Source: a virus
Lineage: Duplodnaviria > Caudoviricetes
Direction: 5' to 3' (one strand)
DNA length: 54,528 nt
IMG/VR virus record: IMGVR_UViG_3300044699_000129
Location: 1 to 54,528 of that record
A program made the translations under genes and the position numbers. Shown piece after piece: positions 1 through 43,691 of this stretch (its first letter is position 1; each line of letters starts with the position of its first letter). The notes beneath the pieces are model-generated. The model was not told where the DNA came from. It did no database searches and saw only the letters and a list, made by a program, of their open reading frames with translations.

Positions 1-1914
1 CCGCCCGTGGTCGCATGACGCCGGGACGGCGCGGCGGGCGCACCGGACCGCCGCGCGCATAGTATTCTTCACCGTATCCGCCACCGTAGGTATCCTCGCC
101 GCTGGCGTACTGACTGTAGTCGTCGTACCCGCCACCGTAGTCATCGTACCCGCCACCGTAGCTGTAGTCGTCGTATCCGCCACCGTAGGTATCGTCACCG
201 CTGGCGTACTGACTGTAGTCGTCGTACCCGCCGCCGTAATTGTAGTCGTCGTACCCGCCACCGTAATCGTCACCGTAACCGTAGTCGTCGTACCCGCCGC
301 CGTAATCGTAGTCGCTGAAGTCGTAATCGGAGCCATCGTAACCGTAGTCGCTGGCGCCGTAGCCGCCCATGCCATCGTCGTCGTAGTTGTAATAGTCGTT
401 GAAATCCTGCCCGCCGCTTGGATCGTAGATCCCCTGCTGGTTGCCGTACTGGTCGATATCGTTGTAGCCGGCCAGCGTACCCAGATCTTCTACCCAAGGA
501 TTTTCCGGCTCCTCACCGCGCCGGTCCTCGATGTTCTCCGCCATCGGCACCCGGTCCCATGGATTGCCCGAAACGTTCGAGAGCTGGTCCTGAAACGACC
601 GCAGCGGCGAAACCGACGGCTCGGTCTGGGTCGGTGTCATCGGCCCGATATCGACTTGTGCCGGCGTGCCGGAGGGACTGCCCTGCTGCTGCAGCCACGG
701 GACGACACCCGGGTCGACATTGAACCCTTGCCCCTGACCATAACCCGGCGGCAGGGTCCAGTTCGCCGGTGCCTCCGGGGCGTTGTCGAACGTCAGCGGT
801 TCACCTTCCGGGGTCTGACCGAGGCCCGGCGACCACTGCGGCATCAAGTTGCCTTCGGAGTCGAAATACGGGACCGGACCTTGGAAGCCTAAATCTTCCG
901 GGGCGCCGGTCCCGTCATCTTCCTCGTCGCTGTCGGATAATGGGGCGGGCGGTACGTCCGCGATCCCCATGCCGCGCTCGGGAGCCTCGCCGCCACTGCC
1001 CTTTGGCTGTGCGTCGGTCTGGGCTGGGCCTGTTGCTGGCCGCCGCCACCGCCACCCTTGCTGCCGCCACCGCCGCCCTTGCCGCCGCCCTGCGGGGCCG
1101 GCGACTGCGAGGACGCGGTCGACTGCGCCTCCTGCCCGGTTGGCGGAACCTTGTTGGCCGCGTTGGCGGCGTCGTAATAGGCCGGCGGCACCTTCTGCAG
1201 CGTGGCCCCGGTGTTGAGCATGCCGAGGATCGCGTTCTCGGCGCCGGTCAGGCCGGCGTAGGCAGACTGCACCGCGCCCATCGCCTGCCCGGGGAGCTGC
1301 TGGCCCCAGCCGATGTACTTCTCCAGCATGCCCCGGCCGGTCTCGGCGGTGCGCTCGGCCGCCATCGTGCCGGCGCCGGCACGCGCCGCGGCGTCCGCCG
1401 TGCGGTTCGACATCAGCAGGCTCTGATAGCGCCCGGAGTTCGGGTTGACGTCGAAGCCCTGCAGCTTGCGCTCAAGCTCGTTGATCGCAGCCGTGTTCGA
1501 CTGCGCCTGCGTGCTCATGGCCTTGCCGGCCTCGTAGCGCTGGCGCTCCTCCGAGGCGTAGCTGCCCGCCTCGCGGAAATACTGCTCCATCGCGGGAGCG
1601 ACGCGGTCCTTGTACTGGCTCAGCAGGGTATCGGCGAGGCCCTTGCCGTAACCGGACATCTGCAGGAAGTTCTGGACGGTCTGGTCGGTGACCCCCATCC
1701 CCTTGGCGTACTGGTCCTGCGCCCACTGGAAGACCTTGTCCCCCAGCATCGACAGGTACTGCGCCTGCAGCAGGCCCCAGTCGGTCTGCGGCGAGGTGAC
1801 CGAGACCGGGTGCGAGGTGCTCTGGCTTTCCGAGCTGGCCCCGCCGCCGCCACCGGTGGACAGCGTGTAGGTGCCGCTGGACTGGGGTGGGCTGTCAAAG
1901 AAATCGTCGGCCAT
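1..1914 (-). CDS. Probable internal virion/ejection protein with Tyr/Gly/Asp-rich low-complexity C-terminal region (frameshift near 1020; runs off the left edge)
   Basis: ORF 889-1914 (Ala/Gln/Gly-rich, helical) continues after a frameshift as ...DAQPKGSGGEAPERG...YGGGYDDY repeats...YYARGGPV. It lies downstream of tail genes, a typical position for ejection proteins. Confidence 0.55.
72..340 (-). repeat. Coding tandem repeat encoding 7 x YGGGY(DD)
   Basis: Repeated gtcgtcgtacccgccaccgtag-type units; minus strand reads TAC GGY GGC GGR TAC GAC GAC with synonymous variation. Confidence 0.9.
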
Positions 1915-1961
1915 GGCTGTCCGTTCTCCCGCGAGGGAGCCGGCAGCATGCCCGCAATACG

Positions 1962-1977
1962 GTTAAGTAAGCGTTAC
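1962..1977 (-). promoter_or_regulatory. CtrA-like box / late promoter upstream of the 1914 gene
   Basis: Minus strand GTAA-cgcttac-TTAAC, then 12 nt after TTAA a -10-like CATGCT. Confidence 0.55.
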
Positions 1978-12409: not shown

Positions 12410-12506
12410 TGGGTCCTCCGAGGTGGGTTACCACGACGGTAACACACCTCGGATGTAGACTTTCAACCTTTTATCAATCCAAGTATTCGCAAGTATAGTT
12501 AAGTAA

Positions 12507-15332: not shown

Positions 15333-15586
15333 CAGCGTGCACTCGTGATGCCGCTCTGCGCCGGGAGCGAACCGGAGAAGCCGAACATCTTGTTCGACCC
15401 GCCCTTGGCGAACTCGGCGCCCTTGCCGGTCGCGCCGGGATCACCGGTCTGGCCGGACTTCGCGGGCTCAGCCTGCTGCTGTGAGAACATTTTTGTGTTC
15501 CCACCCTTGGCAAACTGGACGTTGTGCGAGGTTTCGTTACGGCTGACGCGAGATGTGTTGTTGAGCGTAGCGCGACCACTGGCCAT
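15332..15586 (-). CDS. Small protein with two FAKGG(N/S)xKMF repeats
   Basis: 84-aa ORF, GGGGAG RBS, first gene after a CtrA-like box. Confidence 0.65.
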   Translation of the reverse strand: MASGRATLNNTSRVSRNETSHNVQFAKGGNTKMFSQQQAEPAKSGQTGDPGATGKGAEFAKGGSNKMFGFSGSLPAQSGITSAR

Positions 15587-15633
15587 GAAGGCTTCTCCCC
15601 TGCAGAGGAGAGAAAGCTATAGGCCCGCAACCC

Positions 15634-15648
15634 CTAACAACTCGTTAA
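15634..15648 (-). promoter_or_regulatory. CtrA-like box / late promoter of the capsid operon
   Basis: Minus strand TTAA-cgagttg-TTAG, then 12 nt, then TATAGC. Confidence 0.6.
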
Positions 15649-20137: not shown

Positions 20138-20698
20138 TTACCCCGCTGAAACGGCCGGAACGCCGTTGTTATTCCAGACCCATCCCAACACATGCGGATC
20201 GGACGTCGGCGCGATGAACAGGTCGACCGTCGTCCCGGTCGGGCCGGTTGGCCCGGTCACACCCAGCGCTGCCGGCGGACCGAGCAGCCCGGTAGCGCCT
20301 TGCGGCCCGGTCGGCCCGGTCAGCGACGCACCGGTCGGTCCGGTGGTGCCGGTCGCCGCGCCGGTCGCCCCGGTCGGTCCGGTGATCCCCTGTGCGGCGC
20401 CGAACGGCCCCGCGTAACCGCCCGGGCCGGTCTGTCCGCCAAAACCCGTGGCCCCGGTCGGGCCTGTCACACCCGCAGCACCCTGCGCGCCAAGACCGCC
20501 AACCGGTCCGGTGTTTGCCCCAATCGGGCCAGTTGGGCCGGTGGCGCCAGCCGCGCCACGCGGGCCCGCCGCGCCGGTCGCCGAACCGGTAGGGCCAGTC
20601 GGGCCGGTGACACCCGCCGCTGCCACGCCAGCAGCGGCCTCCTCAATCGTGGGACCGATCTTGTTACGGTCGTAGTTGGTCGAGGACAGAATAGGCAT
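20138..20698 (-). CDS. Short collagen-like fibre protein (paralogue 1)
   Basis: GPT triplets; C-terminal [16 protein letters not shown]. Confidence 0.85.
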
Positions 20699-20722: not shown

Positions 20723-20738
20723 GTTGATGTTTCATTAA
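20723..20738 (-). promoter_or_regulatory. CtrA-like box / late promoter of the collagen operon
   Basis: Minus strand TTAA-tgaaaca-TCAAC, then 12 nt after TCAA, TAAGGG. Confidence 0.55.
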
Positions 20739-20743
20739 GCCGG

Positions 20744-23111
20744 TCACCCAACCCCGGGGGAAAGTCGCGGCGGCATGCCCGGACCGGGCCCGCCCGGCTG
20801 GTTACCCACCACCGCCGTCTGCGGTCCCATCCCTCCCGGGGGGGCTCCCCTCCGGGTGCCTTGGCCATAGGCCGCCATCTGCGCAACATTGCCGCCGCCC
20901 GGCTTGCCGCCGGGCGGCTGCGCACCGAACTGGCCCCGGCCGGGACCACCCACCACGCCGCCATCGCGCGAATTTCGTGGCGGTCCATTCGGTGGGAGTC
21001 CCGGAGGGCCGGATGGACCGGCTTGTCCAATGGTCTGGTCCATCCCGACCTGCGGCATGAGGCCGGCAGCAGTGAGTTCTTTCGTGACCTGCTGCACGCC
21101 GGCCTGCACGCCCTGCTGAATGCCCTGCTCGACCTGCTGCGCCACCTGACCGCCGCTCTCGTGCTGCTCGCGTTCCTGCTTCTCCATCTTCTCCAGCTTG
21201 TCTTCCGACGGCACGACCTCCTCGCCATTGAGCCCGATGGTGGTCGAGACCGAACGCAGCACCGCGCCACGCCCGGTTATCCCCATGATCTTCATGTCGG
21301 TCGGGTTGAGTGTCGCCTGCAGGAACTCCAGCTGGCGCTGGCGGATCGTCTCACGCTGGATCGCGACGTTGACACCCAGCACCGTGATGTCCTTCCTCGC
21401 CGGTCAGAAGACCGGTAGTGTCGGTGAGCAGGATCAGATCTGATAGCTGCAACAGCGCCGGCTCGATTACTTCGCGGTCTATGTTCGAACTCACCGTCTG
21501 CAGGATCTTGCTGGCATTGCCCATCAGCATCGCCAGACCTGATGCTGTTCGCCCGGCACCCCCCGAGTCGCCACGCCCGCCGACGTATTTGGGGATCGCC
21601 GAGACGTCGTCGGAAATCTCGATGAACTCGCGATAGACCTTGAGCAGCGACTCGGCGTTCATCGTCGGCATGAAGAAGCTGATCGGCGGCTGGTTGTTGC
21701 TCCCCACCGGATCGTTGCGCGCATGCCAGCGCTTCCACGGGTAGAGCTGATTGTCGTCGTCCGGCGTGATGCGGTCGTCATTGATCATCACCTGCGGGCC
21801 GGACGCGATGCTCATGTTGTTGACCAACGCGCGCAGGGTCGCGTTGGCGGCCTGCTGCAGGTCGTCGAGTAGATCGATCAAGGAGTTTCCCACCGGCGTG
21901 CCGGGGACCTTCTCGAACGAGGTGATGAAGTAGGGGTGCCGCTTGCGCGGGCTGGGGTTGAGCTGGCACTTGATCACATGGCGGCCGATGACCCAGCACT
22001 CGACAGCGTAATCGCGCAACTCATCCGGGACCGCGAGACCATATTCCTGCAGCACACGACCCTGAATGTTGCCGTTGTACTGCATCATGGAAATCATGCC
22101 GGACCGGTTCCACGCGGGGTTCTCGCGGCTCTCCAGAACGGCACGTTCAGCGTCGGTGGTGTCCCAGTTGTCATAGAGCCCACCACGCCCATACTCGTCG
22201 AGCACCGCCCGGATTGCCTCTTGGTCGTAGCCGGGAAGATCGAGAAGGTCGTTCAGCTCACCGCGCGTGATCGAGATCTTCTCGATCACCTCGGCATTCT
22301 CGATGTCGCTGACTCCGGGAGTGAACCAGATGTCGAACGGTGACACCCGGTTCCACGTCAGCTGGGGCTTCATCTCGATAGTCGGCGCGCCGCCGCCCTT
22401 CGGCCATGCCACCTCGGGCATGATCTTGACGACAGGGCCCTTCATCACCGCGAAGGGAAAAATCGGCAGGTCGACCAAGAACTCCGCCATGGCGTGATAG
22501 AAGCCGCCGCCGCGCATCAACTCCTCGATGCGGTCCTCACTGACTCGCGCCTGCTGCGTCGCCTTGCGCTTGGCCGCGTCGGACGCGCTGTCCAGCAGGA
22601 TCTGGCGCCGCTTCTCGATGTCGGTCCCGGGCGGTGGCTGGCCCATGGTCTGCCGGACCTGCTGCTGCTCGGCCTGCACCAGCTGATTGATGGACTGGAT
22701 GATGTCCTCGGGAACGTCCGGGTCGGCCGGCGCGCGCACCGCATAGGGCCGATCCTGCGACAAATAAATATCGCGCAACAGCGAGGAAGCCGCCCGGCAC
22801 TTCTGCGCCGCGATGCGCGCGTAGATGTTGGAGCCGCCGAACTTGCCGATCTCCTGCAGCTGCGTCGCGTTGTACTGACCATTGAAGGTCTCCATCGCCC
22901 CGATCAGCCGCGTGCTCCAGCCCGACTGCGTGTTGCGGTGGTTACGGAAGATCTCGAACCGGCCCTTGATGTAGCTTGCCAGCTCCGTGGCGTCCTGCTC
23001 GGGCGGGGCATTGGCATTGGCGGCAGTGGCCGCGCGCGCCGAGATCTGCCGCTCCAGTTCGGCCGGCGGGATGACTTGGAGAACGCCCTGATTGCCCAGA
23101 AGATCAGCCAT
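20744..23111 (-). CDS. Portal protein (frameshift near 21390) with Gly/Pro-rich tail
   Basis: RVSPFDIWFTP, HPYFITSFEKVPGTPVGNSL, NATLRALVNNMSIASGPQV, GRTASGLAMLMGNASK; ORFs 21351-23162 and 20744-21382. Confidence 0.85.
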
Positions 23112-23137: not shown

Positions 23138-23153
23138 CTAACGTTCCGTTAAC
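23138..23153. promoter_or_regulatory. CtrA-like box in the divergent portal/terminase intergenic region
   Basis: CTAA-cgttccg-TTAAC; -10-like hexamers 12 nt away on both strands (GAAAAT on +, CATCGT on -). Confidence 0.6.
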
Positions 23154-23176
23154 GGATGCCATGGGAAAATCGGGTC

Positions 23177-23866
23177 ATGACAGACGGCGAAGACGACTAT
23201 GTCAGCCCGGAAGAGTCCGGATTGAGCAGCCTCGTTGCCGTGACGGTAACTCCCGTTGCAGTGGAAGAACTTCCCCAGCCTTCTGCTGCTGCAACCACGC
23301 CCGTGTCGGACCCCCCATCCCCCGGCACGGGCGGCGGCGAGGCCGCGTGGGAAGCCTACAAGGCACGTGACCGCTCGCGCAAACTGCCCGAGCCCGTGCA
23401 GATGCCGGACGGCTGGAGCCTGCACGATGTCGCCGCCCTCGTCGGCGACGTCGCGGCGAACATGTACGAGCTTCCGTTCATCCTCGCCAAGCACAAGCTG
23501 TCCGAGGCCCAGTACAATCTGATCAAGAAGAACGAGTTCTTCCAGCGCGCGCTGGAGGCCGAGATCATCACTTGGCAGGGCGCCAACTCCATCCAGAAGC
23601 GCCTTGCGCTGGAAGCCGCCATCGCGGTGGAAGCCTCGATGCCGATGGTCGCGGCGCGCCTGTCCAACAAGAACGAGCCCTTGGGTGAAGTGGTCTCGCT
23701 GATGAAGCTGTTCGCCGAGATGGCCGGCTCCATCGGCACCAAGGCGGCGCCGACCATGGGCAACAGCGAACGCTTCAAGATCGTGATCAATCTCGGCGGG
23801 CACAACGCACTGGAGCGCGAGGCCGAGCCCGCGCTCAAGGTGGTTACCGGCACGGTAACTCCATGA
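23177..23866 (+). CDS. terS: Terminase small subunit (putative)
   Basis: Helical protein ending in FKIVINLG; stop overlaps the large-subunit start (ATGA). Confidence 0.6.
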   Translation: MTDGEDDYVSPEESGLSSLVAVTVTPVAVEELPQPSAAATTPVSDPPSPGTGGGEAAWEAYKARDRSRKLPEPVQMPDGWSLHDVAALVGDVAANMYELPFILAKHKLSEAQYNLIKKNEFFQRALEAEIITWQGANSIQKRLALEAAIAVEASMPMVAARLSNKNEPLGEVVSLMKLFAEMAGSIGTKAAPTMGNSERFKIVINLGGHNALEREAEPALKVVTGTVTP

Positions 23867-25329
23867 CCGACGACCTGATTTTCACCCCACCGCCGACGCT
23901 CGACCGCTTCATGTGCTCCTCGGCCTACGGGCGCATCGCCGCCGGCCCGGTCGGATCGGGCAAGACCACCGCCTGCCTGATGGAGTTGTTCCGGCGCGCC
24001 TGCGAGCAGCGCCCGGCGTCCGACGGCAACCGCTACACCCGCTTCGCGGTGGTCAGACAAACCCTGAAGTCACTGAAGGACACTGTCCTCAAGGACTGCG
24101 AGACATGGCTCAGCGCGCGCGGGATCGGCGTATGGAAAGTCTCGGAGAGCACCTACCACATCAACTTCGACGACGTGCGCAGCGAGTGGGTGTTCCTGCC
24201 GTTGGAGGACGCGCAGGATCAGGCAAGACTGCTCTCGATGCAGTTGACCGGCGCGTGGCTGTCGGAGTGCATCGAGATGGACCTCGACATCTTGGGCCCG
24301 GTCACCGGCCGTGTCGGACGATATCCCAGCGGCGCACGCGGCCAGCCGACATGGGTCGGGATCATCGCCGACACCAACATGCCGACCGAGATGACGCCGT
24401 GGCAGACCTTCATGGAGAACCTGCCCCTCGACTGGGACAAGTTCATCCAGCCGTCCGGCATGTCGGAGGAAGCCGAAAACCTGCAGTGGCTGACCCAAAC
24501 CGACGAAAGCGTCAAGCTGCCCGAGACCCATCCGGTGCGGCTGGCACAGGACGCAAATACTACGAGCGCCTTGTCTCGATGCACGGCGCCGAGTCGGATT
24601 GGGTGAAGCGCTACGTTTACGCACAGTACGGCGACCGACCCGAGCGGCATGGCGGTGTTCAAGAACACCTTCAAGGCGTCATTCCACACCGTGGAGGACA
24701 CCCTCCTCATCCCGGGCTATCCATTGATCGTGGGACAGGACTTCGGGCGCAATCCGTGGTCGCTGATTTGCCAACCGGACCATATGGGCAGATTGTTGGT
24801 GCACGAGGAAGTGCCCGCCACCAATGTCGGTCTGGAGAAGCATGTCAATGAAAGCCTCAAGCCCAAGCTCACCACCGACAAGTATATTGGCTGGCGCGTT
24901 GCCACCGTGGGAGATCCGAGCGGCGTCGCGAAAGGCAGCATCGCTGAAGAAACATGTTTCGACGCTCTCAAGCGACTTGGACTGCCTGCATTCCCTGCTC
25001 CGACCAACGACATCGAGCCAAGACTACGGGCTGTTGAAGCGCTACTCGGTCGACAGGTTGGCGGCGGCCCTGCGCTCGTTATCTCGCGCCGAGGCTGCCC
25101 TAAGCTTTGCCGCGCGATGTCTGGAGGGTATCGTTTCATCAAGACCCAGCAGGGCGCGCTCAAGAGTGTCCCGGACAAGAACGACCCCGAAGGGTTCAGC
25201 CACGTCGCCGACTGCCTCCAGTACGTCGCGCTGATCGTGCACGGCGGCATGGTGCAGTGGATCACCACGCGGCTGAGCCCGCCGAAGCGCGCGGTGCAGC
25301 AGCGCGTCTCGGCGCTGGGCTGGACCTAG
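23863..25329 (+). CDS. terL: Terminase large subunit (frameshifts near 24550 and 24640)
   Basis: Walker A GPVGSGKT, RFAVVRQT, LTGAWLSE; nuclease domain GQDFGRNP, GDPSG, SHVADCLQY. Confidence 0.9.
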
Positions 25330-28406: not shown

Positions 28407-28822
28407 GAGAGGGGTACTCCCTGTGGCGGGCAGGCGCGCAGGGTGCGCACCGCCTCGGCCAGCCGCTCGCACTGGCCGGTGAGTTCTTCCAGCTTCTTGT
28501 CGAAGTTGCGCTGGATCAGGCCGTCGAACGCGACCTCGTGCGCCGGCAGCAGCAGGCGGGTGGCGTTCTGCACCGCAGCGGTGCGGTCGAGCACGGCCGA
28601 CGTGTCGATCATCGCGTCGGCCAAGGCGAGGACACCCTCCACATAGGCGAAGTCGAGCGGGCGCTCGTTGAATGGCGAAGCCACGCCGCGCTCGCAGATC
28701 GCGAGCAGCGTCAGGTGCAGGCAGGCGCGCACTTTCGATGCACAGAGGGTCTCTTCCTCCAGCAGCGCAAGCAGCGCGTCAAGATCGACACGCGACCTTG
28801 GAACGTAGGCGGGTGCGGGCAT
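28403..28822 (-). CDS. Hypothetical protein
   Basis: 139-aa ORF with stop overlapping the next start. Confidence 0.55.
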   Translation of the reverse strand: MPAPAYVPRSRVDLDALLALLEEETLCASKVRACLHLTLLAICERGVASPFNERPLDFAYVEGVLALADAMIDTSAVLDRTAAVQNATRLLLPAHEVAFDGLIQRNFDKKLEELTGQCERLAEAVRTLRACPPQGVPLS

Positions 28823-29429
28823 CGGGAGCCATCCGGGCCAAGAGTGCGGTCTTCGTTGCGGGGTCGAGGAAGTAGCCCTTGCCCCAGCTGGTGCGGATCA
28901 CGAAGGCTGGGTCGGCGAGGGCGAGCTTGCGCCTGAGCTTGCATATCATGACGTCGACCATCTTGGGATCGGTGGTTTCGGGCTGTGCCGGGCGCAGCTG
29001 GCGCGAGGCGCGCTGTGCCTCGACCACGGCGTGCAGCTTCTCCTTCTCGGCGAACAGGCAGCGCAATAATACGGCAAGGAAGCCCGCCTCCAGATTGGTC
29101 AGCCGGAAGGTCTGGCGGCAGAGGAATTCGAGGTCCGCGATGCCGAGCGGAGGAGCCGTAGCGGTACGGGCGTGGCCAATCGGCCAGTCGGTCTTGGGGA
29201 GAGAGGTTATTTCGCCGAGCCGCAGCGCGCGGTTGAGCAAGGCGATCACGCGGTCGTACGGGATGCGCAGGATCCGCGCGATGGCCTTGACCGGCACGCC
29301 CTCGTTGGCGGTGCGCACCGCCAGCATGTGGTCGGTCGGCGGGTAGGTGGTGGTGGTGACAAGGTGTGGATGCGCGGACGCATGCGCCGGCGCGGGCGGC
29401 GTGGCCACCCCCAACTGCAGCGAGGACAC
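28779..29429 (-). CDS. Transcription regulator: N-terminal HTH plus OmpR/PhoB-type winged helix resembling the CtrA DNA-binding domain; no receiver domain
   Basis: LTNLE..FL..LL....KEKL...DPKMVDVMICKLRRKL......IRTSWGKGYFL; N-terminal EGVPVKAIARILRIPYDRV; GTG start with GGAAGGGG RBS. Confidence 0.8.
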   Translation of the reverse strand: MSSLQLGVATPPAPAHASAHPHLVTTTTYPPTDHMLAVRTANEGVPVKAIARILRIPYDRVIALLNRALRLGEITSLPKTDWPIGHARTATAPPLGIADLEFLCRQTFRLTNLEAGFLAVLLRCLFAEKEKLHAVVEAQRASRQLRPAQPETTDPKMVDVMICKLRRKLALADPAFVIRTSWGKGYFLDPATKTALLARMAPDARTRLRSKVACRS

Positions 29430-29577: not shown

Positions 29578-29976
29578 TCACATGTCACTTGGCGCCGAGG
29601 GCGGCAGGCCCGCCGCGACGCGCAGGTCGGCGAGCGAAGGGGAGTGCCCGGGCGGGAAGCTGTCCTTGTGGATGGCGTAGAGCCGGTCGAACTCCTCCAC
29701 CTGCGCCTTGGTGATGGCAGCCTGCCTGAGTTTCTTCTCAGCCATGTGGGCAGCGCGATATTTCTTGCGGTGGTTCTGCTGGTAGACGCGCATGCAGGCA
29801 TGGCAGTAGGCGGCGACGCGGCGCTGCTTGATGCCGCCGCAGGTGGGACAGACCGGCTGTCCGGTATTCTCGGCGCGGTTGGTGAGCTGGCCACGGGTTT
29901 GGTATATCGGCTTGTGTTGCAGGGCAGCACGGCGCAGGGCGTCGAGGCATTTTTCACGGTCGTCGAACCAGACCAA
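29578..29976 (-). CDS. Zinc-finger-containing hypothetical protein
   Basis: CPTC...CHAC followed by a basic helix. Confidence 0.55.
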   Translation of the reverse strand: MVWFDDREKCLDALRRAALQHKPIYQTRGQLTNRAENTGQPVCPTCGGIKQRRVAAYCHACMRVYQQNHRKKYRAAHMAEKKLRQAAITKAQVEEFDRLYAIHKDSFPPGHSPSLADLRVAAGLPPSAPSDM

Positions 29977-30185: not shown

Positions 30186-30215
30186 ATGCTAAGAGGATAT
30201 TATGTTAAAAGTCAA
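30186..30215 (-). promoter_or_regulatory. Sigma70-like leftward promoter
   Basis: Minus strand TTGACT-18 nt-TAGCAT with a TTAAC half-site in the spacer; just downstream of a terminator and upstream of the Zn-finger and CtrA-like genes. Confidence 0.4.
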
Positions 30216-30257: not shown

Positions 30258-30302
30258 AAAAAAGGCCACGCTCCCCGGGGGGTCTGCCCCGGGGAGCGTG
30301 GC
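30258..30302 (-). terminator. Rho-independent terminator
   Basis: 16-bp stem GCCACGCTCCCCGGGG/CCCCGGGGAGCGTGGC followed on the minus strand by CTTTTTT. Confidence 0.8.
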
Positions 30303-35669: not shown

Positions 35670-35766
35670 GAGCAATCCCGTGGTTCGGCGCGGCGGGGGG
35701 AGACCCCGCCGCTGCCCACGTTACCGCGACGGCAACAAACCGAAACAATCAAAAGGACCAAACACA

Positions 35767-37822: not shown

Positions 37823-40800
37823 GCATCGACAGAGAGGTACTCAGGCTATTCGAAAGCCGCGCAGAGTCCGGCGACGGTTTGTTCGCCATCGCGGTAGCAC
37901 TGCATGAGCTGGTGCACGCTGCAGAGGACATGACCCGTGCAGTGAACGAGCTGGGTTTTGGCAATGTTGGCACCGGCAAAGGCGCCATCGAGGGCGGCTT
38001 CATGATGCTTTCCGATGCCATCAGTGACGCATCCAGCCGTATTGCTGATGCCATCGAGGAATTTGATATCGGCGATCTGACCGTAATCACCAAGGAAGAC
38101 TGAATTACCGTCACGGCAACAAACCACGAAAGGAACACTGCGATGGGAAGAAATAGACGCGGACGGAGCCCCAGCACCACTCTCTATGATGATGCGATCT
38201 ATCGGATCAATGCGCTGGAGGCCAACGTGGTGCGGGCGATGTGCCCCGTGGAGGACCTCAAGCCGGAAGATTTTCTGGAGTGGCTGCTGCCACCCGATGT
38301 CTTGGCGAAGCTGCGCGCGGCTTGGCCCCATGTGCAGAACAAGACCGGCAGCGACACCAGCAACATCACGCGCGATCTGGATTTTGCCTGCGGCAAGGTG
38401 TGCTTCTCGATTGACTACGGCGCGCTGAAGTGCCTCGTGCCGGATGACAAGCTGGTGGTCCCGCACTATGTCAATACGCGCATGGTCGAGTACGTCGAGA
38501 GCATCGGCGAGATCGCCAAGCAGTACGAGAAGCTGCGCCAGATCGTCTGGCACTTCAGCCGCAACACCATCACGCCGGGCGCGGCCAAGCACTACTGGCC
38601 GACCCTGCAGCCGCTGCTGCCCGAGGACCATCCGTTCCACAAGGTGACGGGCGACCGGTACCGCGCCCATGCGCTGCCCTACACCATTGCCGAGAACCTG
38701 CGCGAGGCCCCGGAGATCGTTGCCAAGGGGCTGCTGTGCGGCGGCATAGTTATGCCACGCAGCGCCAATTCGCCGGTGAATATACAGGTCGGCCTTGGCC
38801 AGTTCCACAGCCTGTTTCCGGATACCGTGAAATGAAGGACACTCCCCGCTACTGGAAACCCCTCGTGCGGCTCAGGCCGCACGAGATGCACCATCGCCGC
38901 GAGGTGCTGGAGGAGACTGCCAACCACTACGGCATCAGCATCGAGGCGGCGCAGGCCATACTCGATGCCGAGGCCGGCAAGTGCGAGTACTACGTCAATG
39001 ACCTGTATCAGGTGGAGGTTGGGGCCTGTGGCCCCGGCAACTCCATCACGCATATCTGCATCCGGCGGCGCGACGGCGCCGCCACGCTGCGTGACTGGCG
39101 CCACTTCCAGCAGATCAAGAACGAGCTTTGCGGTCCCGAGCGGGAGGGCTTCGAGCTTTATCCCGCCGAGAGCCGCAAGGTGGACACCAGCAACAAGTTC
39201 CACATCTTCGTGCTGCCTGAGGGCGTGCGCATGGAGGGCATCGGCTGGACCACGCGCGACGTGCAGTACGAGGAGCGTAAAGACGTGCCCGGGCTGCGGC
39301 AGAGGAGCCTGTGATGCGTGCCATGGTGCTTCTCGCAATGCTGCCGCCCGCGATCTTCGCCACCAACATTGGTGTGCACTATCCACCCAAGCCGGCACCT
39401 GCCGAATACGTCAACGAGTATGTTGCCGTGGCGGTAACCACCGAGGGCGTGCGCCGCGTGCCGATGGACACGCGCACGTTCAACGCACGCTGGACGTCGG
39501 TGAACGCCATGCCGCCGATGGTGCTGGCTGCCAGCGAGCCGATGGCGGCTCCCATGCCGCAGGCTAGGCCGCAACTGCGGAAGCGCAAGCCGCACCCGCG
39601 CAATATCACGCGCAAGCCACACGACATCTGCACCCGGCATAGGCTGCGCAAAGTGTGGGTCAGTGCCAAACGATGGAGATGCAGATGACCGAGCACGTTT
39701 ACGTCGTCTCACAGAACGACTTTGTGGCGGCTGTGTTTCGCAGACGTGCGCAGGCGGCAGCTTTCGTTGCACGACAGGCAGCGCACACCGAAAGTGGACG
39801 CCCCATCTACTGGACGATTGAAAAATTCGAGTTGCAGGAGGCACGATGATGACCAGCACACAGAAGATCATTCGCGAGCTTAGGCGGGAGTATCCCGGCA
39901 GCGAGATTGGCTTCACCGGCAAGGGGCACATCAAGCTCAAGCTGCCGGATGGCCGGATGTTCACCATGGCGGCCACGCCGTCGGACGGGAATTTCTTAAA
40001 ACAGATAAAGCGCGGTATCAGAAAGTACGGCAGGCAGAAATGAGGGAACAAACATGAAGCCGACCAGTAAGGCACTGCTCACATGCGCACAGTGGCTCTC
40101 GTACTGCCTGTCCATCGGGTGGTTGAAAGACGACATCCCGCGTCTGGAAGAAATCTGGTGGCAGTGGCACGACGACTACGGCCGCTTACTGCGCGATCCG
40201 CGCTGAAGGGAACACCATGACCGACCAGAGCGTCCAAGGCTTCTGGAGTGTATCCGGCCCTTATCTGGCGATGCCGCGTTCAAGGCGGTGGCGCGCAGAG
40301 TTCATCCCCCATGGGCACACTCCTTTCGAGGCTGGGCTTGCGTGGGCCGCGACGGAAAAGGCTGCGCGCCAAAAGGCACTTCGTCGCGCACGCCTCAAGA
40401 ACACGACGCGCACATTGCGATAGCCGCACTAACATCACAACAGAACGGAGACGGAAATGGCACAATGGATAGTCCACGGCAGGTTCGTATTCGATGGTCA
40501 TGCTCTTGTCGAAGCCGAGACGGAGCAGGAGGCAATCGCCAAGTTCAATAGCGGCGACTTTGAGTTCGACGCACCTACCGCGTCCTGTTGCGACTGGGAG
40601 AAACGCGGCAAGATCGAGGGGCCACATTAACGATGAGGGACAGCCACGATGACAGAACGCGACCAAGTGTTCGATGTATGCTGGTGGGATAAGGAGGGGG
40701 GTCTCCACCGCGAGAAGACCGGTGTCAGTGCCAAGACGGCTGTGGAGACTGCCCACTCGCTGACTAGACGCCCGGCGGTGCAGCTGGGTATCATCCAGAC

Positions 40801-41805: not shown

Positions 41806-43691
41806 CTATCCTTTTCATCGACGCCGAGACTTTCTATGACCAAGAGTACAGTCTCAACCACCTCGACCCTCCTTCCTATATCTTGGATGCACGGTTCGAA
41901 CTCATTGGATGCGCTGTGCGTACTGAGGGCGAGGAGCGCAGCCGGTTCATCGATGGCCCGGAGTTTGCGGCGTATCTTGGGGGACTGGACCCCGCCACAA
42001 CCACCACCGTCGCCTTCAACGCGATGTTTGATAATTGCATTCTTGCGTACCGGTATAACTTCGTCCCAGCCCGCATTATGTGCACGATGCGGATGGCTGT
42101 GGCCCTGCGCGGCCACGAGCTGCAGGGTCATTCCTTGGCCGCAGTCGGAGAGCGCCTTGGAGTGGGTGTCAAGGGAAATGAGATAGTCCTCGCCAAGGGC
42201 AAGCGCCGCGCCGACATGATGGCGGACCCGTATTTCTGGCGCGCCTACCGCGAGTATGCCTGCAACGACAACGACATGAACTACCGGATCTTCCGCCTGC
42301 TGGCGGAGGAGCTGCCGGTCAGCGAGTGGAAGGTCATGGACCGGGTGATGCGCTGCGCCATGGAGCCGAAGTTCATGGTCGACAAGGAGATGCTCGCCGC
42401 GCACCTCAAGGAGCTGGACGAGATACAGGTCGCCATGCTGGCCAAGGCCGGCACCGACGCGAAGAGCCTGCGCAGCACCAAGAAGTTCGAGAAGCTGCTT
42501 ACCGAGCGCGGCGTGGAGATCGAGTACAAGCCGAGCTACACCGACCCGACCCGGCAGATCCCGGCCTTCGCCAAGACCGACAGCTTCATGGCGGTGTTGT
42601 CCGAGCACCCCGATCCCGAGGTGCAGGCGCTGGCGGCGGCCCGGCTGGGCGTGCGCTCGACCATCGAGCAGACGCGCGGCAAGCGCATGCTCGACATCGC
42701 CAACCTCGCGTGGCCGGGTTACCGCGACGGCAACATGCCGGTGCCGCTGAAATACGCCGCCGCGCACACCCACCGTCTCGGCGGCGACTGGAAGCTGAAC
42801 ATGCAGAACCTCCCCGCCGGGCGCGGGGGGATGACCTCCAAGCTGCGCCGTGCGCTGTGCGCGCCGCCCGGGCACAAGGTGGTGGTCGCGGACAAATCGC
42901 AGATCGAGTGCCGCATCGCTGCATACATCTGCGGGCAGGAGAGCCTGCTGCAGATCTTTCGCGCGCGGCAGGACCCCTATGCCGAGTTGGCAGGAAGAAT
43001 TTTCCGGCGCGCGATCAACAAGAAGGTGGACGTGATCGAGCGGTTCATTGGCAAATCCGGGGTGCTCGGGCTGGGCTACGGCTGCGGCCACGACCGGTTC
43101 TACGCCATGGTGATCGCACAGGCGCGCACGCTCGGCATCGACATGGCCAAGCTGTACGAGATCTGGACCCCGGAACTGGCCTTGCTCACGGTCCGGACCT
43201 ACCGCGAGATGAACCAGAGCATCGTGCAGCGCTGGCGCTGGCTCGACGGCGTCATTGCCACGACGTGGTCGCATGGCACGCCGCAGCACATGCGGTTTGG
43301 CCCGGTGCTGATCAGCAAGGGCTGCATCGAGGGACCGAACGGGCTGCGCATGCAGTACGCCGACCCCCGGTTCGACCCGGAAACGCAGAACTGGCGCTAC
43401 ACCTACGACCGGCGCAGCTACACCATGTACGGTGCCAAGCTTTTGGAGAACATCGTGCAGTTTCTCGCCCGGATAAACCTGATGCACGACGCGCTGCGCA
43501 TCTCCGACCGGGGCTTTCCCTTCGTTTTGCAGGCCCACGACGAGCTTGTCTGGGTGGTCCCGGACGATCAGGTCGAGCAGTGCATGAACGTGGCACTGGA
43601 AGAAATGCGTAGACCCCCCTCATGGGCGTCGGGCATACCGCTTGATGCCGAGTCCAGCTTTGGGCAGAATTATGGGGGGGCCAAGGCATGA
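41802..43691 (+). CDS. polA: Family A DNA polymerase with 3'-5' exonuclease domain
   Basis: Exo DAET, FNAMFD, YACND; HTHRLGG, NMQNLP; motif A DKSQIECR; motif B RFIGKSGVLGLGYG; motif C QAHDELV. Confidence 0.95.
   Translation: MTILFIDAETFYDQEYSLNHLDPPSYILDARFELIGCAVRTEGEERSRFIDGPEFAAYLGGLDPATTTTVAFNAMFDNCILAYRYNFVPARIMCTMRMAVALRGHELQGHSLAAVGERLGVGVKGNEIVLAKGKRRADMMADPYFWRAYREYACNDNDMNYRIFRLLAEELPVSEWKVMDRVMRCAMEPKFMVDKEMLAAHLKELDEIQVAMLAKAGTDAKSLRSTKKFEKLLTERGVEIEYKPSYTDPTRQIPAFAKTDSFMAVLSEHPDPEVQALAAARLGVRSTIEQTRGKRMLDIANLAWPGYRDGNMPVPLKYAAAHTHRLGGDWKLNMQNLPAGRGGMTSKLRRALCAPPGHKVVVADKSQIECRIAAYICGQESLLQIFRARQDPYAELAGRIFRRAINKKVDVIERFIGKSGVLGLGYGCGHDRFYAMVIAQARTLGIDMAKLYEIWTPELALLTVRTYREMNQSIVQRWRWLDGVIATTWSHGTPQHMRFGPVLISKGCIEGPNGLRMQYADPRFDPETQNWRYTYDRRSYTMYGAKLLENIVQFLARINLMHDALRISDRGFPFVLQAHDELVWVVPDDQVEQCMNVALEEMRRPPSWASGIPLDAESSFGQNYGGAKA

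What the first reader, a model, noticed from the sequence alone, without database searches (positions are those of the whole stretch)
28779..29429. Phage-encoded receiver-less CtrA mimic, likely the late-gene activator
Seen: C-terminal winged helix KMVDVMICKLRRKL...IRTSWGKGYFLDP, an N-terminal second HTH, and no phospho-receiver domain. Known (recalled, not searched): the CtrA recognition region reads approximately KIIDVFICKLRKKL...IETVWGRGYVLRDP, and the ICKLR helix is characteristic of CtrA among OmpR-family proteins. Inference: together with the CtrA-like boxes at late promoters, the phage carries its own phosphorylation-independent CtrA-like factor. This would uncouple late genes from the host cell cycle and might also bind host CtrA sites (origin, division, pili/flagella genes). 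Its putative promoter (30186-30215) contains a TTAAC half-site, suggesting feedback.
Basis: partly seen in the sequence, partly recalled or inferred. Interest (0 to 1): 0.85.

Follow-up and report, generated by a model that had tools for sequence, protein, structure and literature searches.

The report
Phage-encoded receiver-less CtrA-like regulator
A soil-type phage of alphaproteobacteria carries a small DNA-binding protein that copies the DNA-reading part of the host cell-cycle master regulator CtrA but lacks its phosphorylation switch, and CtrA-type sites sit at the conserved promoter of the phage's portal gene, so the phage probably turns on its own late genes without waiting for the host's signal.

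Summary
The gene at 28779-29429 (minus strand) is real. It encodes about 182-216 aa: an N-terminal three-helix HTH, a linker and a C-terminal OmpR/PhoB-type winged helix, with no receiver domain. The recognition helix is closest to CtrA. The CtrA model is the best NCBIfam match for 28 of 28 family members, and 10 of 15 helix residues equal those of verified CtrA. The protein belongs to a family found almost only in uncultivated phages related to Rhizobium phage RHph_TM3_14A. The window has no exact TTAA-N7-TTAA, and genome-wide counts are not enriched. The signal is positional: 48 of 53 related phages carry a box with at most one mismatch upstream of the portal gene, against 5.5% of control windows. 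The box sits where a -35 element would be, ahead of a -10-like element. The window has this box at 23138-23152. Four portal relatives without the regulator lack the box. Best reading (about 0.6): a constitutive CtrA-like activator of late promoters. Binding, activation, dimerisation and any action on host CtrA sites are untested. Feedback on its own promoter is weak in this window. An abundant palindrome, TTACCG-N3-CGGTAA, was found and is not tied to this protein.

The parts
28779..29429 (-). Regulator gene (P0001, 216 aa from GTG 29429; 182 aa if ATG 29327 is the start); stop codon 28779-28781
29220..29339 (-). N-terminal three-helix HTH domain (residues 31-70), followed by the conserved P-x-x-D-W-P motif
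   Evidence: AF2 helices 31-42, 47-54, 58-70 with pLDDT about 95. Weak Pfam HTH_23/HTH_Tnp_ISL3 matches. Invariant E43, P46, R52, P78, D81, W82.
28860..29141 (-). OmpR/PhoB-type winged-helix DNA-binding domain (residues 97-190)
   Evidence: Pfam PF00486 above its cut-off; structure matches; alignment with CtrA and E. coli regulators.
28914..28964 (-). Recognition helix KMVDVMICKLRRKLALA (residues 156-172), CtrA-like
   Evidence: The NCBIfam CtrA model matches residues 155-188. 10 of 15 residues are identical to CtrA, against 4-8 for eight E. coli OmpR-family proteins.
30186..30215 (-). Sigma-70-like promoter candidate for the operon that holds the regulator (TTGACT-18-TAGCAT)
   Evidence: Consensus match only.
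30265..30302 (-). Intrinsic-terminator-like hairpin (16 pairs, then a T run) just upstream of that promoter
23138..23152 (-). CtrA-type box TTAACGGAACGTTAG, 26 nt upstream of the portal ATG (23111), with the conserved -10-like CATCGTGC after it
   Evidence: Best hit in the window of the matrix built from relatives (18.0, against a control 95th percentile of 17.4). Family-wide counterpart.
15634..15648 (-). CtrA-type box TTAACGAGTTGTTAG followed by the -10-like CTATAGC, upstream of the gene that starts at 15586
   Evidence: half-sites and -10 conserved in G001 while the spacer differs. Matrix score 16.1 (control median 12.1, 95th percentile 17.4).
1963..1977 (-). Weaker box GTAACGCTTACTTAA upstream of the virion-protein gene 889-1914; only the proximal half-site is conserved in G001
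   Evidence: Not among the matrix hits.
20724..20738 (-). Weaker box TTAATGAAACATCAA, conserved with its flanks in G001; function uncertain
   Evidence: Not among the matrix hits.
21351..23111 (-). Portal gene, the conserved late gene downstream of the box
   Evidence: PHROG 332 at E 3.7e-53. 56% identical to the Rhizobium phage portal. Start codon taken from the alignment with G001.

Best explanation
The gene encodes a phage transcription factor made of an N-terminal HTH domain and a C-terminal OmpR/PhoB-type winged helix. Its DNA-reading helix and wing come from, or closely copy, those of CtrA, and it has no receiver domain. It is made from a host-type promoter at the head of the leftward arm. 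It then binds tandem GTTAA-type half-sites 11 bp apart (TTAA-N7-TTA[A/G]) that take the place of a -35 element at late promoters. In this phage the clearest cases are the portal promoter and a promoter at 15.6 kb. From there it recruits host RNA polymerase as a class II activator, without needing the CckA-ChpT phosphorelay. Shown here: the domain make-up, the likeness to CtrA, the conserved position of the box, and the co-occurrence of box and gene. Inferred: binding, activation, how many copies bind, and timing.
For: Architecture. CtrA likeness: the CtrA equivalog model is the top NCBIfam hit for P0001 (27 bits; VirG next at 17.5). It is hit by 28 of 28 aligned family members at E <= 0.001, against RpaB 15, PhoP 11 and VirG 8. 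Real CtrA genes were fetched, and 9 of 10 tested pass the 350-bit cut-off. DBD identity is 31.9% to 52 CtrA sequences and 24.2% to 8 E. coli OmpR-family proteins. Helix identity is 10-12 of 15 to CtrA and 4-8 of 15 to the E. coli proteins. The Cys-Lys pair is in 52 of 52 CtrA, 29 of 65 phage DBDs (Cys in 63 of 65) and 0 of 8 E. coli proteins. Ten outlying hits of a DBD-only search of 1.84 billion proteins were tested. CtrA was the best model in 8, among them all four that align to that model from their N-terminus, the receiver region included (their receiver domains were not checked against Pfam). Family: 107 and then 468 relatives; 97 in viral contigs but 1 in 185,579 species genomes; the Atlas cluster is 100% viruses. 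Boxes: in 794 kb around the gene in 81 related loci, TTAA-N7-TTAA occurs 67 times, against 3-17 at every other spacing from 0 to 15. 48 of 53 unique loci have a box with at most one mismatch, mostly 55-72 nt upstream of the portal start, against 5.5% of random 180-nt windows. The logo is GTTAA[C/G]G-N4-GTTA[A/G], then about 11 nt, then G.TA...T. A matrix built from relatives alone picks the window's portal box and the 15.6 kb box as its two best hits. Half-sites and the -10 are conserved with the closest complete relative while spacers differ. Co-occurrence: RHph_TM3_14A, G005, G006 and G007 have related portals, no regulator and no box (best 3-4 mismatches). Fisher p = 0.002 for 48 of 53 against 0 of 3 independent lineages. 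Position: the portal lies 3-5 kb downstream on the same strand in 64 of 81 loci. Known background: CtrA boxes at -35 activate (abstract of PMC11264516), and phosphorylation at D51 stimulates CtrA binding (passages of PMC6847485).
Against: No binding or expression data exist. The window has 0 exact boxes. Its four one-mismatch boxes are within chance and match other spacings. In the complete relatives G001-G004, one-mismatch counts at N7 (8, 16, 13, 24) are not clearly above other spacings, and exact boxes number 0, 0, 0 and 2. The signal is therefore positional, not genome-wide. Co-occurrence rests on 3-4 regulator-less lineages, and shared ancestry could explain it. The residue after the Cys varies (K, H, N, L) with no matching change in the boxes. 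The tree does not resolve a CtrA origin: phage and E. coli clades both attach as long branches inside the CtrA cluster, and no other alphaproteobacterial OmpR subfamilies were sampled. Host CtrA could bind the same boxes. Relative G002 has the regulator but few boxes genome-wide.
Confidence: 0.6

Rival explanations
1. The boxes are read by host CtrA~P, as in other alphaproteobacterial phages, and the phage protein does something else at or near them. It could compete with CtrA, modulate it, or occupy one half-site next to it, tuning or blocking CtrA control rather than replacing it.
For: Host CtrA binds and regulates promoters in unrelated alphaproteobacterial phages (abstract of PMC9437464). 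Exact boxes cluster 1.5-3.5 kb upstream of the regulator gene and at its own promoter in relatives, where the phage protein would not yet be present at the start of infection. The closest cultivated relatives infect Rhizobium, which has CtrA (that Rhizobium has CtrA is my recall).
Against: Portal relatives that lack the regulator also lack the portal box, although at least one infects a host with CtrA. 44 of 48 portal boxes depart from the canonical box by one base, which fits a slightly different reader.
Confidence: 0.22
2. The protein is a repressor or a switch of early genes. It would sit on boxes that overlap promoters in order to shut them off. It would not be a late activator.
For: Boxes that overlap a -35 can repress. 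Many exact boxes in relatives lie in the upstream (early or middle) region.
Against: The conserved portal promoters have a -10-like element and no -35 hexamer other than the box, which is the layout of activator-dependent promoters. The gene sits at the head of the structural arm in 64 of 81 loci.
Confidence: 0.08
3. Its real target is the abundant palindrome GTTACCG-N3-CGGTAAC. That motif has 8 copies in the window, one of them between the upstream gene and the regulator.
For: The motif is strongly over-represented: 8 copies at N7 against 0-1 at other spacings in the window, and 92 against at most 23 in related loci. Symmetric variants differ between clades. It shares the TTA..N7..TAA geometry.
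Against: Rhizobium phage RHph_TM3_14A has 46 copies (32 with N8, 14 with N7) but no relative of the regulator, even by profile search at E <= 1. G002 has the regulator and only 1 copy. The loop length varies between 3 and 4 within one genome, which suits a hairpin better than a fixed dimer site.
Confidence: 0.07

Closest known systems
CtrA, the alphaproteobacterial cell-cycle response regulator (NCBIfam NF045991)
   Same: OmpR-type winged helix. The recognition helix is 10 of 15 identical and includes the Ile-Cys-Lys-Leu-Arg core. The wing has the W-G-x-G-Y motif. The likely target geometry is TTAA-N7-TTAA at the -35 position.
   Different: There is no receiver domain and no Asp51; an HTH domain stands in its place. 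It scores 27 bits against the 350-bit cut-off. A helix replaces the N-terminal beta-sheet platform of the DBD in the model. A loop about 10 residues longer lies before the recognition helix. It is encoded by phages.
Host-CtrA-controlled phages ('lytic deferment', Mascolo et al. 2022, PMC9437464; abstract and searched passages read)
   Same: CtrA-type boxes lie in promoter regions of phages of Alphaproteobacteria.
   Different: A search of that paper for 'phage-encoded', 'receiver domain', 'winged' and 'encode a CtrA' found no mention of a phage-borne CtrA-like protein; 'CtrA homolog' occurred twice, neither time for a phage protein. Its supplements could not be seen.
Receiver-less OmpR-type DNA-binding proteins (ToxR, CadC, TcpP, SARP/AfsR)
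   Same: They carry an OmpR-type winged helix with no phospho-receiver and are controlled by other means. They appear as fold matches.
   Different: Their partner domains differ (membrane anchors, BTAD). None is CtrA-like in the recognition helix as far as tested here. What these proteins do is my recall.
Phage middle and late gene activators such as T4 MotA
   Same: Small phage proteins that redirect host RNA polymerase to promoters lacking a normal -35. The MotA activation domain appears among the fold matches (Z 7.6 with rmsd 6.3 A).
   Different: No sequence relation. The weak fold match may reflect only a common helical arrangement.

Membership tests
OmpR/PhoB-family winged-helix DNA-binding domain (Pfam PF00486 Trans_reg_C) | Profile match above the curated gathering score | tested here: met
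   28.6 bits against a cut-off of 26.2, residues 133-188, profile positions 22-77 of 77.
OmpR/PhoB-family winged-helix DNA-binding domain (Pfam PF00486 Trans_reg_C) | Fold: three helices with a recognition helix, followed by a C-terminal beta-hairpin wing | tested here: met
   AF2 model. ArlR, SaeR, CovR, BaeR, PmrA and VanR match at rmsd 2.3-3.4 A over 80-88 residues.
OmpR/PhoB-family winged-helix DNA-binding domain (Pfam PF00486 Trans_reg_C) | N-terminal four-stranded beta-sheet platform of the domain | tested here: inconclusive
   The model shows a helix (97-108) where the sheet would lie. The Pfam match starts at profile position 22, and the alignment shows no counterpart to the strands. 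This is a prediction only.
CtrA (NCBIfam NF045991 equivalog) | Whole-protein score of at least 350 bits | tested here: not met
   27 bits, and only model positions 187-221 match.
CtrA (NCBIfam NF045991 equivalog) | Receiver domain with the phosphorylated aspartate (D51) | tested here: not met
   No receiver family in Pfam. The N-terminal domain is a three-helix HTH.
CtrA (NCBIfam NF045991 equivalog) | CtrA-type recognition helix and wing | tested here: met
   10 of 15 helix residues and 5-7 of 12 wing residues equal those of 52 CtrA DBDs. CtrA is the best model for 28 of 28 family members.
CtrA (NCBIfam NF045991 equivalog) | Binds TTAA-N7-TTAA | not testable with these tools
   Indirect evidence only: conserved boxes at portal promoters and co-occurrence with the gene.
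Two-component response regulators | Phospho-accepting receiver domain and a cognate kinase | tested here: not met
   No receiver domain. No kinase was seen among the 35 window ORFs scanned against PHROGs; not every ORF was scanned.

The most novel reading that the evidence does not exclude
The phage protein is a constitutive stand-in for CtrA. It would drive the phage's late promoters and also occupy the host's CtrA boxes (replication origin, division, flagellar and pilus genes). That would freeze or reprogram the host cell cycle during infection, and the wider set of receiver-less CtrA-type DNA-binding proteins seen here (coiled-coil and pseudo-receiver forms) would be a general mobile-element toolkit for hijacking the CtrA regulon.
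Probability: 0.2. Interest if true: 0.9.

Novelty: new variant of a known kind. Interest (0 to 1): 0.72.

Why it matters
CtrA is the essential master regulator of the alphaproteobacterial cell cycle, and it acts only when phosphorylated. Phages were already known to place CtrA sites in their genomes so as to listen to the host. A phage family that carries its own switch-less copy of CtrA's DNA-reading domain, together with matching boxes at a conserved late promoter, would show the opposite strategy: speaking the host's regulatory language without the host's permission. It gives a simple system that can be tested directly, with one small protein and a 15-bp box. It may explain how a widespread group of uncultivated soil and rhizosphere-type phages times its late genes. 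It also offers a natural constitutive CtrA-box binder as a tool for studying CtrA regulons.

Tried and rejected
Megablast of 20 kb of the window and tblastn of the protein against the 50,697 GenBank phage records found nothing.

The gene in the corresponding position of Rhizobium phage RHph_TM3_14A (176 aa) is unrelated (hhalign probability 0.4).

A tree of 58 DBDs was built from 36 of 65 phage rows kept at under 75% identity, 14 of 52 CtrA rows kept at under 85%, and 8 E. coli rows. It gave two well-supported long-branch clades, phage and E. coli, both attached inside the CtrA cluster. It does not settle a CtrA origin, because no other alphaproteobacterial OmpR subfamilies were available. A scan of the 80 metagenome contigs for such genes found none with a DBD except CtrA paralogues.

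I looked for a link between the helix residue after Cys (K, H, N, L) and the box or palindrome variants. No pattern appeared.

I considered the palindrome TTACCG-N3-CGGTAA as the target and rejected it.

GCCCGCAA, shared by two box regions, is not enriched (5 found against 4.3 expected).

Immediate neighbours of the regulator are not conserved. The Zn-ribbon gene is found in 3 of 81 loci and the 139-aa gene in 0.

Homodimer prediction gave no verdict (0.40 against the mark of 0.42). It is evidence neither for nor against.

Sequencing runs: no RNA holder is listed. That is no evidence on expression or habitat.

The literature searches for a phage-borne CtrA-like protein found none in the held library. 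Subscription papers and supplements were not searched.

The N-terminal domain alone was not folded or searched, so its fold family is open.
Full report
WHAT THE WINDOW IS. The window is an IMG/VR virus record: 54.5 kb, linear, estimated 79% complete. Genes from about 30.7 kb down to 1 run on the minus strand and are structural. They include the portal at 21351-23111, collagen-like tail fibres, an F5/8 type C tail protein, an internal virion protein and other virion proteins. Genes from about 31.3 kb to 47 kb run on the plus strand and are for replication: an ATPase, a family A DNA polymerase, an exonuclease and a helicase. A short plus-strand block holding the terminase large subunit (23156-25329) diverges from the portal. 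No GenBank phage is similar at the DNA level. The nearest cultivated phages by protein are Rhizobium phages RHph_TM3_14A, TM27A, TM27B and TM29 (portal 56% identical, polymerase 39%). Most of the other portal hits are phages of Alphaproteobacteria (Puniceispirillum, Roseobacter, Pelagibacter, Sinorhizobium); a few infect Aeromonas, Vibrio and Pseudoalteromonas. An alphaproteobacterial host is therefore likely, though not shown.

THE OBSERVATION. The ORF at 28779-29429 (-) is there with the quoted residues. Pfam Trans_reg_C passes its gathering score, an N-terminal HTH is weakly matched, and no receiver is found. The AlphaFold2 model built on 28 relatives is confident in both domains. It shows a three-helix HTH (31-70), a disordered linker ending in a conserved P-x-x-D-W-P motif, and a winged helix (97-190) whose recognition helix is residues 156-172. 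Solved OmpR-type DNA-binding domains are the fold matches. Two features differ from classical members. A helix stands where the N-terminal beta-sheet platform should be, and the loop before the recognition helix is about ten residues longer.

IS IT CtrA-LIKE, OR JUST OmpR-LIKE? Among 18,950 NCBIfam models the CtrA equivalog is the best hit (27 bits over residues 155-188; the next is VirG at 17.5). All 28 aligned family members hit it at E <= 0.001, against 15 for RpaB, 11 for PhoP and 8 for VirG. The score is far below the 350-bit membership cut-off, so the protein is not a CtrA.

To compare residues directly I fetched real CtrA genes. A degenerate DNA pattern for the recalled motif DVFICKLRKKL found 80 metagenome stretches. 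Of these, 54 hold full-length proteins of 225-270 aa with the motif at or just beyond residue 190, and 9 of 10 tested pass the CtrA cut-off. Over the DBD the window protein is 31.9% identical to 52 CtrA sequences (range 29-34) and 24.2% identical to eight E. coli OmpR-family proteins (range 17-30). In the 15-residue recognition helix it shares 10-12 residues with CtrA and 4-8 with the E. coli proteins. The Cys-Lys pair at the base-contacting face is in all 52 CtrA and in none of the 8 E. coli proteins. In the phage family the Cys is kept in 63 of 65 distinct DBDs, while the next residue is K (29), H (19), N (14) or L (1). Two relatives (L080, L081) have the CtrA helix almost letter for letter.

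A DBD-only search of 1.84 billion representatives found 238 relatives at E <= 0.001. I tested ten hits whose length or match position departed from the family's. CtrA was the best model in eight, among them all four that align to the CtrA model from residue 1, over the receiver region as well (P0233, P0258, P0248, P0246). One hit had TctD marginally ahead of CtrA, and one had no match.

The tree I could build is not decisive. Phage and E. coli clades are each supported at 100/100 and both attach as long branches inside the CtrA cluster.

THE FAMILY. Sequence searches found 107 relatives, and 468 with a profile. Those listed (108 and the best 120) are about 125-300 aa, and none carries a functional name. 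There are 97 in IMG/VR, many on contigs of 62-70 kb, some with terminal repeats, but only one in 185,579 species genomes, and that on a 5-kb contig of a metagenome bin. The nearest Atlas cluster is 100% viral. In 64 of 81 related loci the portal gene lies 3-5 kb downstream on the same strand. Immediate neighbours are not conserved. The cultivated Rhizobium phages lack the gene even by profile search.

THE BOXES. In the window itself the claim looks weak at first. There are 0 exact TTAA-N7-TTAA. The 4 one-mismatch sites (1963, 15634, 20724, 23138) compare with 1.44 expected, and 7 of 100 shuffles do as well. Other spacings give 3-5 such sites. The four complete relatives I fetched likewise show no clear genome-wide excess.

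The signal appears in comparison. In 794 kb around the gene in 81 related loci the exact box occurs 67 times (50 distinct sites), against 3-17 at every other spacing from 0 to 15. The decisive pattern is positional. In 48 of 53 distinct loci, a box with at most one mismatch (4 exact, 44 with one mismatch) lies upstream of the portal start, mostly 55-72 nt before it, against 5.5% of 1,060 random windows of the same length. Aligned, these sites read as two GTTAA[C/G]G-type half-sites 11 bp apart, followed after about 11 nt by a -10-like G.TA...T, with no other -35. This is the layout of promoters that CtrA activates from the -35 position (abstract of PMC11264516).

A weight matrix built only from the relatives ranks the window's portal box first (18.0; the 95th percentile of the best score in 30 simulated sequences is 17.4). 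It ranks the 15.6-kb box second (16.1; control median 12.1). In the closest complete relative (G001; regulator 60% identical) all four boxes have counterparts at the corresponding gene borders. In two of them the half-sites and the -10 are conserved while the spacer has changed.

WHO READS THE BOXES? Four phages have a related portal but no regulator: RHph_TM3_14A (complete), G005 (93% complete), G006 (96%, provirus) and G007 (58%). None has a box before the portal (best match 3-4 mismatches). Counted as three independent lineages against 48 of 53, Fisher's p is 0.002. Shared ancestry can inflate this. RHph_TM3_14A infects Rhizobium, which has CtrA by my recall, so the mere presence of host CtrA does not bring the box with it.

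Host CtrA remains a serious rival or partner. In relatives, exact boxes cluster 1.5-3.5 kb upstream of the regulator, pointing towards it. In addition, 24 of 62 distinct loci have a box with at most one mismatch in the regulator's own upstream region, against 7.8% of controls. A cascade would fit these phages: host CtrA, then the phage factor, then late genes. In the window the regulator's operon instead starts at a sigma-70-like site (TTGACT-18-TAGCAT, 30215-30186) just after a strong terminator.

HOW IT MIGHT WORK WITHOUT A RECEIVER. In CtrA, phosphorylation of D51 stimulates DNA binding (PMC6847485, passages read). The phage protein has an HTH domain in place of the receiver. That domain could hold two copies together, or it could touch DNA or RNA polymerase. 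None of this is shown, and the homodimer job gave no verdict. Other receiver-less relatives found carry an N-terminal coiled coil (P0212, P0203, P0229) or a divergent N-terminal region that still aligns to the CtrA model (P0233, P0258). This suggests that the CtrA-type DBD has been joined to several alternative partner modules.

A SECOND MOTIF, NOT PART OF THE FINDING. The palindrome GGTTACCG-N3-CGGTAA occurs 8 times in the window, always with GG on the plus-strand 5' side. One copy lies directly after the stop of the gene upstream of the regulator. It is common in the relatives, with symmetric variants that differ between clades. It also occurs 46 times in the regulator-less Rhizobium phage, with loops of 3 or 4 bases. 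It is therefore a feature of the wider phage group, probably a hairpin, and is not tied to this protein.

COMPARISON WITH WHAT IS KNOWN, AND VERDICT. Host CtrA sites in alphaproteobacterial phages are in print (PMC9437464). My searches of the held library found no report of a phage-encoded, receiver-less CtrA-type protein. Supplements and subscription journals were not covered. The protein is a member of the OmpR/PhoB winged-helix family and is not a CtrA. It probably works like a constitutively active CtrA at phage late promoters. I rate it a new variant of a known kind, interest 0.72.

Noticed in passing
window 7651, 9692, 12428, 14795, 17018, 23844, 29563, 52289 (15-mers); also RHph_TM3_14A (L228-L231) and G003, G004: The palindrome GGTTACCG-N3-CGGTAA has 8 copies, all with GG on the plus-strand 5' side, and many lie inside coding sequence. 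Related phages carry clade-specific symmetric variants (TTACAG..CTGTAA, TTACTG..CAGTAA, TTACGG..CCGTAA). The regulator-less Rhizobium phage has 46 copies with 3- or 4-base loops. It is probably a hairpin element of unknown role.
   Followed up: partly
window 35713-35742, 38097-38126, 42711-42740: Three copies of a variant, TTACCG-N3-CGGCAAC, with a shared extension, lie in the replication arm, two of them inside genes (repeat finder family D15).
   Followed up: no
window 12420-12460: One palindrome copy (12428) sits inside a longer inverted repeat (CCGAGGTG ... CACCTCGG), directly before a ribosome-binding site and an ATG at about 12409.
   Followed up: no
window 1900-1960 and 15590-15630: Both box regions are followed by a shared TTGCGGGC and then a short hairpin of the form CTCCC-loop-GGGAG before the start codon. 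This may be a common 5' leader structure.
   Followed up: no
window 23863-24606 and 24649-25329 (+): The terminase large subunit seems to lie in two ORFs. Only the first matches the PHROG terminase families. This could be a split gene, a frameshift or a sequencing error.
   Followed up: no
window 7.8-9.2 kb, 10.1-10.4 kb, 19.1-20.6 kb, 54.3-54.5 kb: Long runs of 9-bp periodic GC-rich repeats encode collagen-like Gly-X-Y tail-fibre segments in several genes.
   Followed up: no
window 29578-29976 (-): A 132-aa protein with a four-cysteine zinc-ribbon-like motif lies directly upstream of the regulator in the same operon. Relatives occur in only 3 of 81 related loci.
   Followed up: partly
window 20563-20637 (-): A tRNA-Val (CAC) gene lies in the structural arm, just downstream of the 20724 box.
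   Followed up: no
L121 (metagenome contig), ORF of 199 aa; proteins P0212, P0203, P0229, P0264, P0245: Other receiver-less proteins with a CtrA-type helix exist. One lies on a contig that also carries ctrA. Several are 128-134 aa with an N-terminal coiled coil, one has an HTH plus a coiled coil, and one of 446 aa has a long C-terminal extension. Together they form a broader uncharacterised set of CtrA-DBD proteins.
   Followed up: partly
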